A stretch of DNA of 21,446 nt. Source: a virus (taxonomy: Duplodnaviria; Heunggongvirae; Uroviricota; Caudoviricetes). The position numbers are program-made. Numbering within the stretch: position 1 is the stretch's first letter; every line of letters starts with the position of its first letter. The stretch lies in the IMG/VR virus record IMGVR_UViG_2671180360_000006; one strand, given 5' to 3'. This document shows, piece by piece, positions 15,001 through 21,000 of this stretch.

Positions 15001-18000
15001 AGAATCTGCCCCACCCCTGACGGGTCAATACCGATATGGTCCAGTAACTCAGCCTCATGAATGCGACGCACATATTCCGCCACTTCCGCCGTGTCATCCC
15101 CGACACGCCGGACAATGGTCATATCTCCACAGGCAACAAGATCCTGAAACCGGGACGCCTCGCTCTTCCGTCGGACCACCGCGGTTTCATGCGCCCAGGC
15201 ATGGCCCCAGCCCAGCCATTCGCGGGTCTCCCGGTCACGCCCAATCACATACATCCCCAGCAGATCATCCAGCCCTCCGCCGTCAATCCCCACCGTCACC
15301 ACATCAGCACGACGCAGGATATCGTCCAGGCTGACGCGCCTGCCCTGCTCTTCCCAGAAATCCGCGCCCGCCCAGCGGTCAGAACGCAGGGCAAGACCGA
15401 TTTCCACATTGGCGTGTTTTGACATGAAGCCACGAAATGCTTCCTCACCAGCCTCCCGGGCTTTACGGTACTCCCGGTACAGAAAGGCCTCATCCACTGA
15501 ATAGCCGAGATTCGGATTGACCATGGCGAGGTTTTCCATCAGCAGGTTAGCCCCGCTTTCCACCATTTCAGGAGGGTGTTCAAATATCACCGGCAGAAAG
15601 TGCGGATCATGAATTTTGCCGTCGCGCACATCCCGGGCGTACTGCAGTTTCTGTCTGAACACCCCGGCGGGCGGTTCATTCGACTGGGTGGTCGTATACA
15701 CCACAAACCCTTCCGGGCGGGAGGCAAGGCCGCCTATGGCTTCACGTAACATGTCCTCCGCCTTGCACTGCTTGCCAAACAGCCACAACTCATCAATCAG
15801 CGTACCCACGGACTTGATACCGGACACCGTATTCGGATCGGCTGCCACCACCTTCAGGGTGGTGTCCGTCACCCGGTGGGTGATGGTCCGGATATGGGTC
15901 TGTACCTGGCAGAGGTCATCCAGATCATCGTCACGTCGTACCATATCCCGGGCAGGGTTGAAGGCGTTGGCCGCCACCTCCACAGTCGGGGCCAGAATCG
16001 TGTAACCCGCCGCCTGCCGCCAGTTCAGTAACAGTGCAGTCATCATGATCCCCGCGGCCAGCGTGGACTTCGAGTTTTTCTTGGGGATAAGGATAAAAAC
16101 TTCCTTGATATGGCGTACACCGGTCTGCGCATCGTAGGAGCCAAACAGGGCCGCCACCAGGTCAAACACCCACGGTGCACAGGACTCCCCGAACGTAGGG
16201 CTACCAGGTGCATCCACAATCCGCAGTTGTTTAAAAATCGCCAGGGCATGTGCGGCCTGCTCCGGATAAATCGGAGCCGGAATAATCGACAGCCCCTTTT
16301 TCAGGCGCTCTGCCCAGTCCGGGCAGGCCGTGCTCCACACAGGTATCATCCGTTGCCCTCATTATCATTATTCACCACCAGGCGGGGTGGTGGTGGCACC
16401 GCAAAACGGTTAGCCGCTTTTTTCGCGGCGTCACCTTTTGCCGATTTTTTACCGGCATCCCCTTTTTTGTGGTGCGTGAACTGCGCCAGCTTATAAGCCG
16501 CATCCAGCGCCAGCCTGGGGTCGGTATTAATGTTCTCCACCAGAAGACGCCCCATCGCTTTCACCGGATCGGGAAGACCATCCTCCATATATTCAATACC
16601 ATGAGATATCACCGCGGGCGGAGGCATCTCCGGATTGTTTTCGTCCGGCTGTGGTATTGCAGCCGCCTCACGGCGACGGGGTTTATCCTCCTGCTCTGAT
16701 TTTTTCTGCCGGTAAACAGGAACCTCATCCACCTCCACCGTCTCGCATTGTTTACGGGCTATAAACGCAAGCACCTCCGGATCTTTTGCCAGCTGCGAGC
16801 CTTTAACCCTGGCGGTCTTCGCCGAATAACCAGCGGCAATGGCTGACGCTGTTTTGTTTTTCCCGGACATGAGCGCCAGCGCAAATTTTCGTTTTTGCGT
16901 TGTCAGCACAGCCTCCTCCCGGGTCCAGAACGCACTCAGCCGGGTATGGTTCAGCCCATTTTTCCCGGCGTCTCATGCCGCAAATGTTAACTGCTGCCTG
17001 GTTAACATTTGCTGAAAAAGCCAGTTAACATTTTTTCCGCACAACAAACTGAATAATAAAGATAAAAACCGCAAAAATGCCCGGACAGCCAGTTAACATG
17101 TTAACTGCCCTGAAACGGGAATTTTTTCTCTGCGTGAGAGGGGGGGCGGTGTCCAAAGCGATCTTTTTTTACGCCGGATGATACCCCCCCCGGGTCGGGT
17201 TACAGTCCGATGATGTCGTCCGCTCTGCCACTACCTCCGGACACCTCCGGCAGCGTCGGGTCTGGCATACCACTCGCCGCTTCACGAGCAGACTTTTGTC
17301 GATGGCATTCGGTACAGAGCGTCCAGAGATTCGTCTCCTCATTACCACCACCGAACTGAAGTGCAATGCGGTGCTCAAGTTCACTGTCACAAAGGTCAAC
17401 CACACGCCCACAGAGACAGCACTGTCCGGCATCCCTCAGCCAGATACGACGCTTGAGGGAAACCCGGGCACTACCACTGACCCGACGCTGTTCACCCTTC
17501 AGGACATTCACCCGCCGGGTGTTCAGAGTTTTGATTCTGCCCGGTAACGTACGAAGCACAGCCATGTAAAATCCTCTCCATATAGCTTGTCACCAGAGGA
17601 AAGAAAATGTCATCGAAAAACCGGACCCGCAGAACCACAATCCGCAATATCCGTTTCCCCAATCACATGATTGAACAGATCAATATCGCCCTTGAACATA
17701 AAGGTTCCGGTAACTTTTCAGCGTGGGTTATTGAAGCCTGCAGGAGAAGGCTGGCAACAGATGCAACGCATCTGCGTCCGGCCAGCATGACAAATAACGA
17801 GAAATGAACGTTCGGTTACAGGAGCAGGTACCCACTGTCCTCCAACAATATTTCATCTTCATACCCGGCGGAACAAGACTTACCCAGCCGGAATGTACAG
17901 AATAACAACAGAGTGATAATTAATTTCTGATGAAATAATCAGGGTGCAGAAGGACTAAAGATAAACGTTTTCTTCACGCCTTTACGCGGCCTGTCCTTCT

Positions 18001-21000
18001 CAAATCGCCATTTTGCCATCGCCTTTACAACCTGCTCATCAAACAGATGGTGCGGCTCTGAACGGATAAACTCAATTCGGGTGACAGTACCATCAGCACC
18101 AATATCAAACTTCACATCAACCCGTCCCTTTATATAATTTGCCGCTGCATAGGCCGGATATTGTGGTAATGCCTTAACCAACTGTCGGGGCATATCTGTT
18201 TTATGTTGCGTACAGCCCATAACCAGAGAAGACAACAAAATAATTAACGGAAGATTTCTTTTCATTTTCATTCCCGGCACAGATAAGAATAAGTCTTATT
18301 CTAACAATGCCACCCTGTCGGCCATCAATCCTCTGCTTAATGGCAACGACAATTATCCGACTTAAATCACAAATCAGACACATGACATAACAGGTCTTGC
18401 GAGGTAACACATCGTCCGGTTTCTTCCACCATCGCACCGAACCAGCGACCATGAGGGGACAACGCCGCGCTCCGTTAACGCGGTAAACCCCGGTGTGTAT
18501 CGTTTTTGATTATCCCCGCACACTCGCGCAGAGGAGTCTCCCTGTCGGGCTACGGTCATGGTTAATGCGGGAATACGGCGACGATACAGCGCATAATGTG
18601 TCAGGCTTGAATACCTTTATCGAATCCCGGTAATAAAAACTGTCCCTGTCTCTCCAGACGTTCCAGCTTTGCAAGCAATTGAGGTTTTTTCGTTCTCCCC
18701 CAGCGATTGAGCAGACGGCCTGACATGCTGGCGACATCCTTCTCTTTCATGTACTCCAGCATTACGGCGTTACGTTCTGCTTCATAACTTTCGCTGTACT
18801 TACGGAGTTCTGCTGACATCCAGTTAAACGCATTGATATAGGCTTCTTTAACAGCATCGGCTTTTGCCCCGTTAAATCCCATAACCAGCATAACGAAGCC
18901 ACTAAAGTCCATGCGGTAGTAAATCTGTTTCTTGTCAAAAATACCTAAGTCATTGATTTTCTCGACGGCCCAAAAATGGGTTGTCGAGAATTCCTCAGAA
19001 CATCTCAAACATTTAATAGCCCTAATCACATGCTGATGGCGTTTACCAAATGCCCTGGCAATCTGGAAGGTGTCAGTTACCGGTTGACCTTCTGCTGCGG
19101 TAACTAACTGGCGAAAGTCGAAGTCATGATTCGCAATTAATTCATTCATGGCGTTGCCTGCTTCTTTGAAATGAACCTTTGCCGCATAGGAAACCAGCCC
19201 ACCGAGGCTCGCCAGCACTAACTGGTATCCTCAAAGGCCCATTCCAAAGGGTCAGGTTCGGTGTTTATTGTGCGCTGCGGTGCGCGGTGAAATACCGGTA
19301 CAAAAATGCCCCGCATCTGCGAGGCATTTTCCTGAAAGTCACTTGTTAAATTTCAGTGAAATTAAAATTATTTTAAGCACTGCGTCCTGATGTATTCCTG
19401 CAGGTAGTTAACCTGCGCGGTTATCTTGTCGATTCCACCTCGGAGACGGTAATAATTGAGTTCAGCATCTGCTGTAAGTCCTGGGCTTTCTCCATCGCCC
19501 ATGCTGCTGGCTCCGGTCGTTGACTTTGCACAGGTGGCGAAGACTTGCAGGCGCTTACGCCCAGCAGAAACATCAGCACGGAGACTTTCGATAGTCGCAT
19601 TAGCATCAGCAAGCTCCTTTGTGTATCTGGCGTCAAGTTCTGCTACATCACGTTGCCGCTTCTGCATATCAGCGATGATGGATGTGGCTTTATCGCGCTG
19701 CTCTTTGTAGGCGATGGCGTTATCACGGTAAAGATTAACAGCCCATGACAGGCAGGCGATAATGCAGATAACCAGAGCGGAGATAATAACGGTTACCCTG
19801 CTCATTGTTGCCCCCACAAACAGACTTCACGCTCAATCTCGCGGCGAGTCATCAGCCCTTTCCATTGCTTACCGCCAGCGTATGTCCAGCGCCGTAGCTG
19901 ATCACATGCGCTTTTGATATCGCCCTGGTTTATTTTGCGAAGAAGCGTCGATGTTCTGAAATTGCCAGCGCCCACGTTGTAAACGAACGAGTAAAGAGCG
20001 CCGCGCGTTGTTTCCGGTATATCGACGTTGATGTACGGGTTAATTTGTCTGGCGACCGTGGCAAGGTCTTTATTCAGGAGGGCTTTGCATTCTGCTTCGG
20101 TATACGTTTTACCGGGCATGATGTCTTTTCCGGTGTGTCCGTGACATACAGTCCATACGCCAACGATATCTTTGTATGGTATGTAGCTGACACCTTCCAG
20201 ACCATCGTTACCACCTGGACCAGTGATGAGCACAGACGCTATGGCAACAGCCCCACCACCAATAGCAGCTGCAACAGCCTTGCGTAATGACGGCGACATT
20301 ATTCACCTCTCGCAGCCTTACGCTTATCTTCTTTAATCTTGAAATAAAGATTTGTCAGATACGTCAGCAGGCCAAACAGCAGACTTCCCAGCACACCTAT
20401 TGCCACCCACTGGGACGGAGAGACTTTGTCCAGCAGCTGCAGTAACCAGTATCCCGTCCCCACCGCTGACGTGGTGTATGACACACCTGTTGTGATTTTT
20501 TCCATCTGATGTATGTCTCCGTCACCGCCGACAGAAAATGAAAGTAAAGAAAAACAAAAAAGCCGCCAGTGTCACCCACTGACGGCCAACGCCGGGAGCC
20601 GTGATTATGGCATTCAGGCTCTGCTAAAAATGCCAGATAACATTCCGGCCTCCCCTGATTCAGGTTATAAATGACACAATATCTTGACAACATCCGTCAC
20701 TGTCTGTCAGAAAATGTACTGCCATATAGAAGCAACATGTGAAGTACATCTATCCTTTTGAGCCAGCACCTCTCCACCGAAAGTCAGTGCTGGCTGTTTT
20801 TTTCCTTAATAAGGCATCTGTAACTGAAACAATCCGCATATTGATAATATATTGACAGGCATCATTGCTGTCTGTGAAAAATAAGTCTCTACAAACATAT
20901 AAGGCCTTTTAGCCAGCGTCTTCTTTTTCAGGTCAGTCGCTGGCTTTTTTTATTATGCTGCCGGTGCATTTATCTCCAGCATCAGACTTTCTATCTCAAC

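What the first reader, a model, noticed from the sequence alone, without database searches (positions are those of the whole stretch)
17939..18280. Prophage moron encoding an outer-membrane lipoprotein with a TonB C-terminal domain
The ORF has a signal peptide and lipobox (LVMGC, Thr at +2) followed by a domain that aligns closely by eye with the TonB C-terminal domain (PQYPA...G.V.VKFD...DG.V......S.P...F...V..AM..WR.E...P). A free, membrane-anchored TonB-C domain could compete with host TonB for the TonB boxes of outer-membrane transporters such as FhuA, BtuB, FepA or Cir. That would be a plausible superinfection-exclusion or colicin-resistance mechanism against TonB-dependent phages (T1, phi80-like) and group B colicins, and could also modulate iron uptake. 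It sits in the classic moron position between the lysis genes and the packaging genes.
Basis: partly seen in the sequence, partly recalled or inferred. Interest (0 to 1): 0.7.

Follow-up and report, generated by a model that had tools for sequence, protein, structure and literature searches.

The report
Prophage lipoprotein carrying a TonB end-domain
A prophage gene between the lysis and packaging genes encodes a small outer-membrane lipoprotein that is essentially just the receptor-docking end of the host TonB protein; it is common in pathogenic E. coli, already annotated but apparently uncharacterised, and most plausibly competes with TonB at iron transporters that phages and colicins exploit.

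Summary
Window 17939..18265/18280 (minus strand) encodes a 108-aa protein (113 aa from the GTG). It has a signal peptide, a lipobox (LVMGC, Thr at +2) and a complete TonB C-terminal domain. Pfam TonB_C scores 55.9 bits against a cut-off of 24.6. The sequence aligns without gaps to E. coli TonB 153-231. An AlphaFold model fits TonB from the BtuB complex at 1.0 Å.

It is not a TonB, because the membrane anchor and proline-rich spacer are absent. The gene is under purifying selection (dN/dS about 0.12-0.17). It occurs in 1616 of 5426 complete E. coli genomes, in phage 21, and in at least 220 viral contigs, nearly always downstream of the lysis cassette. Chromosomal orphan copies exist in Pantoea and Erwinia.

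New here: many relatives carry strong Fur-box matches (14-17 of 19) 28-37 nt upstream of the start codon. The window's own site is weak (13 of 19).

The proposed function, an outer-membrane-tethered competitor for TonB boxes, is plausible but untested. Soluble periplasmic TonB fragments are inhibitory, and the phage lipoproteins Llp and Cor jam FhuA from the periplasm. I found no functional study.

Verdict: a real, already annotated gene of uncharacterised function. It would be a new variant of transporter-targeting phage lipoproteins.

The parts
17939..18265 (-). CDS of the TonB_C lipoprotein (108 aa including stop; the mechanical ORF from GTG extends to 18280)
   Evidence: 100% identical CDS annotated 'TonB family protein' in several E. 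coli genomes
18212..18265 (-). Signal peptide with lipobox LVMG-C18 (Cys codon 18212-18214); Thr at +2
   Evidence: Sequence; PS51257-type rule met; Cys conserved in at least 90% of the 33-sequence alignment
17951..18190 (-). TonB C-terminal domain, residues 26-105, equivalent to E. coli TonB 153-232; the protein ends at the position of TonB 235
   Evidence: Pfam/NCBIfam; gapless PDB alignment; AF2 pLDDT at least 96 over the domain; Foldseek rmsd 1.0-1.2 Å to 2gsk_B and 2grx_C
18282..18300 (.). Weak Fur-box-like site (13/19 to GATAATGATAATCATTATC) containing the palindrome AGAATAAG-T-CTTATTCT (18286-18302), 35 nt upstream of the 108-aa ATG (the 113-aa GTG at 18280 adjoins it)
   Evidence: Same position as 14-17/19 boxes in relatives, but 13/19 occurs 6 times in the window, so it is weak on its own
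18298..18306 (-). Extended -10-like element TGTTAGAAT (TGTCAGAAT in phage 21)
   Evidence: Read by eye; not reported by the consensus scan
17607..17807 (+). Convergent YlcI/YnfO (DUF3950) gene, linked to the TonB_C gene at a constant offset in E. coli loci
   Evidence: Pfam DUF3950 71.7 bits; +461 nt offset in most window-type (>=91% identical) IMG/VR loci L043-L083

Best explanation
SHOWN: the gene encodes a small lipoprotein whose mature part is a 6-15-residue tether followed by a complete TonB C-terminal domain. [quoted passage not shown] The protein lacks TonB's membrane anchor and proline-rich spacer, so it cannot transduce energy. INFERRED mechanism: held against the periplasmic face of the outer membrane, the domain binds the TonB boxes of TonB-dependent transporters (FhuA, FepA, Cir, BtuB and others), and possibly those of incoming group B colicins, by the same strand pairing TonB uses. 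It would thereby out-compete the scarce host TonB. The expected result is a general damping of TonB-dependent entry: less irreversible adsorption of T1/phi80-type phages, and less killing by TonB-dependent colicins, microcins and albomycin, at some cost to siderophore and B12 uptake. Fur boxes upstream of many family members suggest the protein is made when iron is low, which is when these transporters are derepressed. In this window the gene also lies in the late transcript.
For: Domain identity and completeness. The model matches TonB as seen bound to BtuB and FhuA (TM 0.92). Almost every family-invariant residue equals the E. coli TonB residue: P161, Y163, P164, G174, G186, F202, W213, P220. 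F180 and F230 are also kept in the window protein. Lipobox and short tether are conserved in all phage subfamilies. Purifying selection: dN/dS 0.12 against the phage 21 copy, median 0.17. The slot is conserved across at least 4 endolysin types and at least 4 terminase types in E. coli, Klebsiella, Rahnella and Sodalis phages. Prevalence is 1616 of 5426 E. coli genomes. Fur-box matches of 14-17/19 lie at -28 to -37 in Sodalis, Erwinia, Pantoea and two IMG/VR prophage types; at most 1.3% of 1150 background upstream regions reach 14/19. Precedent: overexpressed periplasmic TonB domain inhibits transporter-mediated iron import (Howard et al. 2001, as cited in PMC9841981). Llp is an outer-membrane lipoprotein that binds FhuA's periplasmic face and blocks T5, phi80, colicin M and albomycin (PMC9586334; bioRxiv 2026.03.26.714494).
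Against: Positions matching TonB R158, Q160 and R166, which I recall as implicated in TonB-box and plug contacts, are not conserved (K, L and Y here; Tyr at the 166 position in most of the family). A TonB inhibitor induced by iron starvation would be costly, and chromosomal Fur-boxed copies in Pantoea and Erwinia fit a physiological iron role at least as well. The window's own Fur-like site is weak (13/19), and the commonest E. coli type (phage 21, CFT073) has none. There is no PADLOC hit. Transporters far outnumber TonB, so blocking them needs a high copy number.
Confidence: 0.42

Rival explanations
1. Iron-regulated accessory or regulator of TonB-dependent uptake. The outer-membrane-tethered domain touches transporters, or their substrates, to tune, prioritise or assist transport rather than block it. 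Prophages borrowed a chromosomal iron-physiology gene.
For: Strong Fur boxes lie upstream of chromosomal orphan copies in Pantoea and Erwinia and of several prophage copies. Phage 21 carries sitABCD next to its tail-fibre genes. A TonB-like C-terminal domain can bind cargo directly (FusB with ferredoxin, PDB 9hi3, among the fold hits).
Against: Without an energy source, a free TonB domain is expected to compete rather than help. The chromosomal copies are not next to transporter or siderophore genes.
Confidence: 0.2
2. TonB trap: the domain pairs with the host TonB C-terminal domain (strand-exchanged heterodimer) and holds the scarce TonB at the outer membrane, instead of covering the many transporters.
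For: The top fold hit is 1u07, which from memory is a dimeric form of the TonB C-terminal domain. About 40% identity to E. coli TonB. Stoichiometrically cheaper than blocking all transporters (inference).
Against: No direct evidence. The physiological relevance of TonB C-terminal dimers is disputed (from memory).
Confidence: 0.1
3. Envelope or lysogenic-conversion lipoprotein unrelated to TonB boxes. It might bind peptidoglycan or stabilise the outer membrane, or contribute to serum resistance like its neighbour Bor/Iss.
For: It occupies the same slot as bor/iss in phage 21 and CFT073. Peptidoglycan association of the TonB C-terminus has been proposed (from memory, not checked).
Against: Conservation follows TonB's own core and YP-motif residues. 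A Fur box points to iron rather than general envelope function.
Confidence: 0.1
4. Late lytic-cycle function: a lysis accessory (PHROG 1267 is labelled 'Rz-like spanin'), or protection of progeny from adsorbing to debris.
For: Same strand, directly downstream of the lysis cassette; no terminator in between was detected by the scan; the PHROG label.
Against: A complete Rz/Rz1 pair is already present (Rz Pfam hit; embedded lipobox ORF 19421..19636). The protein is a globular TonB domain, not a short o-spanin. Chromosomal non-phage copies exist. A relative has its own promoter-like site, Fur box and terminator.
Confidence: 0.08
5. Decaying fragment of a captured tonB gene with no function.
For: Old annotations call it 'partial tonB-like'.
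Against: dN/dS 0.12-0.17. The lipobox is conserved down to 35-40% identity. Intact in 1612 genomes.
Confidence: 0.02

Closest known systems
TonB (E. coli P02929), C-terminal domain residues 153-235
   Same: Same fold and about 37-42% identity. Gapless alignment. The YP motif, G174, G186, F180, F202, W213, F230 and P220 are kept. The model superposes on transporter-bound TonB at 1.0-1.2 Å.
   Different: No N-terminal transmembrane helix and no Pro-rich spacer, so no ExbB/ExbD coupling. It is anchored by lipid to the opposite (outer) membrane. It ends 4 residues before TonB's C-terminus. Positions 158, 160 and 166 differ.
Phage T5 Llp and Cor proteins of phi80/N15/T1-type phages (superinfection-exclusion lipoproteins)
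   Same: Small phage-encoded lipoproteins of the outer membrane's inner leaflet that act on the periplasmic face of a TonB-dependent transporter.
   Different: No sequence or fold relationship; no Cor or Llp family hit. Llp is FhuA-specific and works by allostery on the plug. A TonB domain would be receptor-agnostic, acting through the TonB box. This gene is not adjacent to a receptor-binding protein gene.
Engineered periplasmic TonB fragments (Howard et al. 2001)
   Same: A free TonB periplasmic domain acting as a dominant-negative inhibitor of transporter-mediated uptake (as cited).
   Different: Those are artificial, soluble and overexpressed. This is a natural, lipid-anchored, selected gene.
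Bor/Iss lipoproteins of lambdoid phages
   Same: Outer-membrane lipoprotein morons in the same slot between lysis genes and cos.
   Different: Unrelated sequence. bor/iss is on the opposite strand to the late genes; this gene is on the late strand.

Membership tests
TonB_C domain (Pfam PF03544 / TIGR01352) | Profile score above the curated cut-off | tested here: met
   55.9 bits against 24.6; 56.4 against 27.1
TonB_C domain (Pfam PF03544 / TIGR01352) | The TonB C-terminal fold: three main strands (47-55, 61-70, 94-103) plus a short N-terminal one, and two helices, in the DSSP of the model | tested here: met
   AF2 pLDDT 86.6 overall, at least 96 in the domain; Foldseek top 11 hits are all TonB or FusB C-terminal domains, rmsd 1.0-1.4 Å for the best
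TonB energy transducer (NCBIfam TonB equivalogs PRK10819) | Full-length architecture: N-terminal transmembrane anchor, Pro-rich spacer, C-terminal domain; score above the equivalog cut-off | tested here: not met
   49-73 bits against cut-offs of 265-448. Only profile positions of about 150-240 align. The protein is 108 aa with a lipoprotein signal peptide
Bacterial lipoprotein, outer-membrane sorted | Lipobox with invariant Cys after a signal peptide; non-Asp residue at +2 | tested here: met
   PS51257-type rule met; LVMG-C-T; 33 of 40 relatives comply, +2 is S/T/A/V. Lipidation and localisation themselves cannot be tested with these tools
Moron (autonomous transcription unit in a prophage) | Own promoter and terminator; expression from the repressed prophage | tested here: inconclusive
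   The window shows no consensus promoter or terminator, only an extended -10-like element and a weak Fur-like site. Relative L091 has a promoter-like site, a Fur box and a terminator. No expression data
Fur regulon | Fur box overlapping the promoter | tested here: inconclusive
   Window 13/19 (6 such sites in 21.4 kb). Relatives score 14-17/19 at the same position. None in the phage 21/CFT073 type. Fur binding not tested
Cor/Llp superinfection-exclusion lipoproteins | Sequence or fold homology to Cor/Llp | tested here: not met
   No such hit in Pfam, NCBIfam, PHROGs or PADLOC; the fold is TonB_C
Cor/Llp superinfection-exclusion lipoproteins | Exclusion of phages that use a TonB-dependent transporter | not testable with these tools
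   Needs plaque assays
o-spanin (PHROG 1267 label 'Rz-like spanin') | Short lipoprotein encoded within or next to its i-spanin gene, required for outer-membrane disruption | tested here: not met
   A genuine Rz with an embedded Rz1-like lipobox ORF at 19421..19636 lies 1.1 kb upstream, with a Rha gene in between. This protein is a globular TonB domain

The most novel reading that the evidence does not exclude
A widespread family of iron-regulated lipoproteins tethered to the outer membrane acts as a receptor-agnostic TonB-box decoy. In one step it blunts every TonB-dependent entry route: T1/phi80-type phages, group B colicins, catecholate microcins, albomycin. This would be a new class of lysogenic conversion and superinfection exclusion. 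The family is carried by about 30% of E. coli genomes, including UPEC and STEC, and was recruited by phages from chromosomal genes of Erwiniaceae, or the reverse.
Probability: 0.35. Interest if true: 0.78.

Novelty: new variant of a known kind. Interest (0 to 1): 0.6.

Why it matters
If the decoy idea is right, one small prophage gene present in roughly a third of sequenced E. coli would alter several things at once: sensitivity to TonB-dependent phages, to colicins and microcins, and to siderophore-antibiotic conjugates, and also iron uptake. That bears on phage therapy, on 'Trojan horse' antibiotics such as siderophore-cephalosporins, and on gut competition. It would also be a natural proof that the TonB-TonB box contact can be inhibited from the periplasm. 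Independently of function, two practical points follow. The family is mislabelled 'Rz-like spanin' in PHROGs. The Fur boxes upstream of many members give a simple, testable regulatory prediction.

Tried and rejected
1. Ten literature searches on TonB-like, prophage, lipoprotein, exclusion, phage 21 and 'TonB family protein' found no functional study. One comparative-genomics paper merely lists a 'putative TonB-like protein'. Howard et al. 2001 is not held.
2. The first AlphaFold run, with 6 close sequences, was poor (pLDDT 56). It was repeated with 33 diverse sequences.
3. The search for related loci with the 15-sequence alignment failed for lack of conserved stretches. It was rerun with 5 sequences.
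4. PADLOC gave no defence-family hit.
5. Rfam found nothing credible in 17000-19500.
6. The conserved 180-nt upstream block is not detectably structured (z = -0.79).
7. The consensus scan found no promoter upstream and no terminator downstream of the gene on its strand.
8. The spanin reading was rejected because Rz and Rz1 are present and the fold is TonB_C.
9. The pseudogene or 'partial tonB' reading was rejected on dN/dS.
10. I looked for a cor gene or receptor clue in phage 21's tail region and found none annotated.
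Full report
**1. What is in the sequence**

The finding's coordinates hold an ORF on the minus strand, 17939..18280, 113 aa from a GTG. Two in-frame ATGs follow. The second, at 18265, has a GGGA 6 nt upstream. It is the start used by RefSeq (108 aa, 'TonB family protein') and by the curated phage 21 record.

The N-terminus is MKRNLPLIILLSSLVMG-C18-T. It has basic residues, a hydrophobic core, a lipobox, and Thr at +2. 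A PROSITE PS51257-type rule is satisfied. [quoted passage not shown]

**2. The domain**

- Pfam TonB_C scores 55.9 bits against a gathering score of 24.6. TIGR01352 scores 56.4 against 27.1.
- Full-length TonB equivalog models score only 49-73 bits against cut-offs of 265-448, and they align only their last 80-90 positions.
- A search of PDB sequences gives a gapless alignment of residues 26-104 (108-aa numbering) to E. coli TonB 153-231, with E about 1e-16. The hits include the chains crystallised with BtuB (2gsk_B) and FhuA (2grx_C).
- In this register, residue n corresponds to TonB n+127. TonB P161, Q162, Y163, P164, F180, G186, F202, W213 and F230 are identical. Y215 becomes F. R158, N159 and Q160 become K, A and L, and R166 becomes Y. 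The protein ends at TonB position 235.
- An AlphaFold model built on six close homologues was poor (pLDDT 56). With 33 diverse family members it reached pLDDT 86.6, and at least 96 across the domain.
- Foldseek against the PDB returns only TonB or FusB C-terminal domains among its first 11 hits. These include 2gsk_B (rmsd 1.0 Å, TM 0.92) and 2grx_C (rmsd 1.2 Å, TM 0.92).

So the mature protein is a short tether followed by a whole TonB docking domain. It has none of TonB's energy-coupling parts.

**3. Context in the window**

All of these genes are on the minus strand:
- Phage lysozyme, 19802..20299.
- Rz, 19368..19817, with an embedded Rz1-like lipobox ORF at 19421..19636.
- A Rha/ORF11CD3 regulator-like gene, 18601..19218.
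- The TonB_C lipoprotein.
- An HNH endonuclease, 17200..17565.
- terS, 16346..16909, and terL, 14688..16349.

A YlcI/YnfO (DUF3950) gene lies convergent on the plus strand at 17607..17807.

The PHROG that best matches the protein (phrog_1267, E = 2e-42) is labelled 'Rz-like spanin'. A genuine spanin pair is present and the fold is TonB_C, so I regard that label as a misnomer.

**4. Is it a real, selected gene?**

Yes, on three grounds.
- The CDS occurs in 1616 of 5426 complete E. coli genomes. About 415 carry the window type (at least 90% identity), many of those listed being STEC. About 1200 carry a roughly 73%-identical type that includes CFT073 and F11.
- It is in phage 21, where it is annotated 'TonB C-terminal domain protein' between bor and cos. 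It is also in Stx1a-converting phages and in JLK-2012, ev017 and Perceval, and a 40%-identical copy is in a Klebsiella phage.
- dN/dS is 0.12 between the window and phage 21 copies (dS about 1.5), and the median is 0.17 over pairs with dS above 0.15.

**5. The wider family**

An exhaustive HMMER search found 4933 proteins at E up to 0.001; the listed hits other than the short lipoproteins are mostly longer proteins, many with several TonB_C repeats. Among them is a set of 105-130-aa proteins that align from residue 1. A profile search added members from Salmonella, Rahnella, Pantoea, Erwinia and Sodalis.
- In the 33-sequence alignment the Cys is at least 90% conserved. The invariant or near-invariant residues are P26, P34, Y36, P37, A40, G47, V49, D54, G59, P71, F75, V79, A82, W86, E89 and P93. 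Nearly all of them equal the E. coli TonB residue at that position.
- The tether is short. The Cys-to-YP distance is 16-25 residues, which leaves about 6-15 residues before the folded domain.
- IMG/VR holds at least 220 viral contigs with relatives, and all 80 fetched copies keep the lipobox.
- The gene sits downstream of the lysis cassette on the same strand and upstream of the terminase genes. This holds with T4-type, GH19 and GH108 endolysins and with several unrelated terminases. It also holds in lambda-like prophages of Rahnella and Sodalis.
- Copies in Pantoea agglomerans, Pantoea sp. SM3, an Erwinia and two others are chromosomal orphans. Their neighbourhoods are unrelated, non-phage and not iron-related.

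**6. A new regulatory clue**

I scanned the 90 nt around each start codon for the Fur consensus GATAATGATAATCATTATC. The best matches all fall 28-37 nt upstream of the ATG:

| Copy | Match (of 19) |
|---|---|
| Sodalis prophage (L091) | 17 |
| Erwinia chromosomal (L095) | 16 |
| Pantoea agglomerans chromosomal (L084) | 16 |
| IMG/VR prophage type L032 (contains a perfect TGATAATCATTATCA) | 16 |
| IMG/VR prophage type L036/L037 | 15 |
| Pantoea sp. SM3 (L097) | 14 |
| Klebsiella type | 12-14 |
| Window type | 13 |

- Among 1150 distinct upstream regions in the same loci, at most 1.3% reach 14 and 0.7% reach 15. Those counts include the genes themselves.
- In L091 a promoter-like site overlaps the box and an intrinsic terminator follows the gene. 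In L095 a promoter-like site also overlaps the box.
- The window's own site (18282-18300, with the palindrome AGAATAAG-T-CTTATTCT) is weak. Sites scoring 13 of 19 occur six times in the 21.4-kb window. It counts only because it is at the homologous position and overlaps an extended -10-like TGTTAGAAT.
- The phage 21/CFT073 type, the Rahnella copy and the L092 copy have no box.
- Fur binding was not tested.

**7. Mechanism**

Shown: architecture, fold, conservation, selection and genomic slot.

Inferred: the domain is held within a few nanometres of the outer membrane's inner face, which is where TonB boxes emerge. It should be able to pair with them as TonB does. Lacking any energy input, it would compete with TonB.

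Precedents support this:
- Overproduced periplasmic TonB domain inhibits transporter-mediated iron import (Howard et al. 2001, as cited in PMC9841981. The original paper was not available).
- A TonB-box pentapeptide inhibits colicin killing and phi80 infection (same citation).
- T5 Llp is a lipoprotein of the outer membrane's inner leaflet. [quoted passage not shown] Iron-responsive expression would match the protein to the moment when these transporters, and therefore the cell's exposure to phages and bacteriocins, peak.

Points against:
- There are no data on binding, expression or phenotype.
- The residues matching TonB 158, 160 and 166 are not conserved.
- An inhibitor made during iron starvation would be costly.
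- The chromosomal Fur-boxed copies hint at a physiological iron role.

I therefore put the decoy mechanism at about 0.4. An accessory or regulatory iron role follows at about 0.2. A TonB trap, an envelope function and a late-lysis function are each at about 0.1 or below. A dead fragment is essentially excluded.

**8. Comparison with what is known, and novelty**

The protein is a member of the TonB_C domain family, tested and met. It is not a TonB; the architecture test failed. It is not homologous to Cor or Llp, and it is not a spanin. Functionally it would resemble Llp and Cor but act on the generic TonB box rather than on one receptor.

The gene is already annotated in thousands of genomes, and the phage 21 annotators recognised the domain. 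I found no study of its function within the searchable library. I class it as a new variant of a known kind. Interest is moderate to high, because the hypothesis is cheap to test and the gene is very common in pathogenic E. coli.

Noticed in passing
window 18415-18600 (minus strand): A block of about 180 nt upstream of the gene is conserved at 75-97% in 398 phage records. These include lambda derivatives and many Stx phages that lack the TonB_C gene. It is about 95% identical to phage 21 by eye, although the adjacent CDS is only 71% identical at protein level. A small ORF in it hits phrog_6954 'Rz-like spanin'. There is no Rfam hit and no significant RNA structure (z = -0.79).
   Followed up: partly
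window 17607-17807 (+): The YlcI/YnfO (DUF3950) gene is convergent with the TonB_C gene. It sits at a constant +461 nt offset in most window-type (>=91% identical) loci, whatever the lysis or packaging module, which suggests a two-gene cassette. Function unknown.
   Followed up: partly
window 18601-19218 (-) and 1013-2059 (-): Two antirepressor-type genes sit in unusual places. A Rha/ORF11CD3 protein lies between Rz and the TonB_C gene in the late region. A P22 antirepressor-like protein (P22_AR_N and P22_AR_C) lies among the tail genes, next to the JAB/NlpC-P60 tail protein.
   Followed up: no
L093 (phage 21, record 21967-24502) and L094 (CFT073 prophage): Phage 21 carries sitBCD (the sit iron/manganese ABC transporter; sitA lies beyond the stretch read) next to its tail-fibre genes. 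The CFT073 prophage with the same TonB_C gene also carries an ompC-like porin gene between Q and the lysis genes, and iss. These are clusters of outer-membrane and iron-related cargo. A TonB-independent iron route could offset a TonB blocker, but that is speculation.
   Followed up: no
L084, L095, L097 (Pantoea/Erwinia chromosomes): Orphan chromosomal copies of the lipoprotein lie in unrelated non-phage neighbourhoods, each with a strong Fur-box match at -30 to -36. In L084 the annotated 132-aa start runs through the Fur box, so the real start is probably the downstream MYGFMMIL.
   Followed up: partly
PHROG phrog_1267: The PHROG family containing this protein is labelled 'Rz-like spanin' in the lysis category, although its members are TonB_C lipoproteins. 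This is a likely annotation error that will propagate to phage genome annotations.
   Followed up: partly
L091 6351-6368: In the Sodalis prophage the gene has a promoter-like site overlapping a 17/19 Fur box and an intrinsic terminator 20 nt after the stop codon. It is the clearest example of the family as a self-contained moron.
   Followed up: yes
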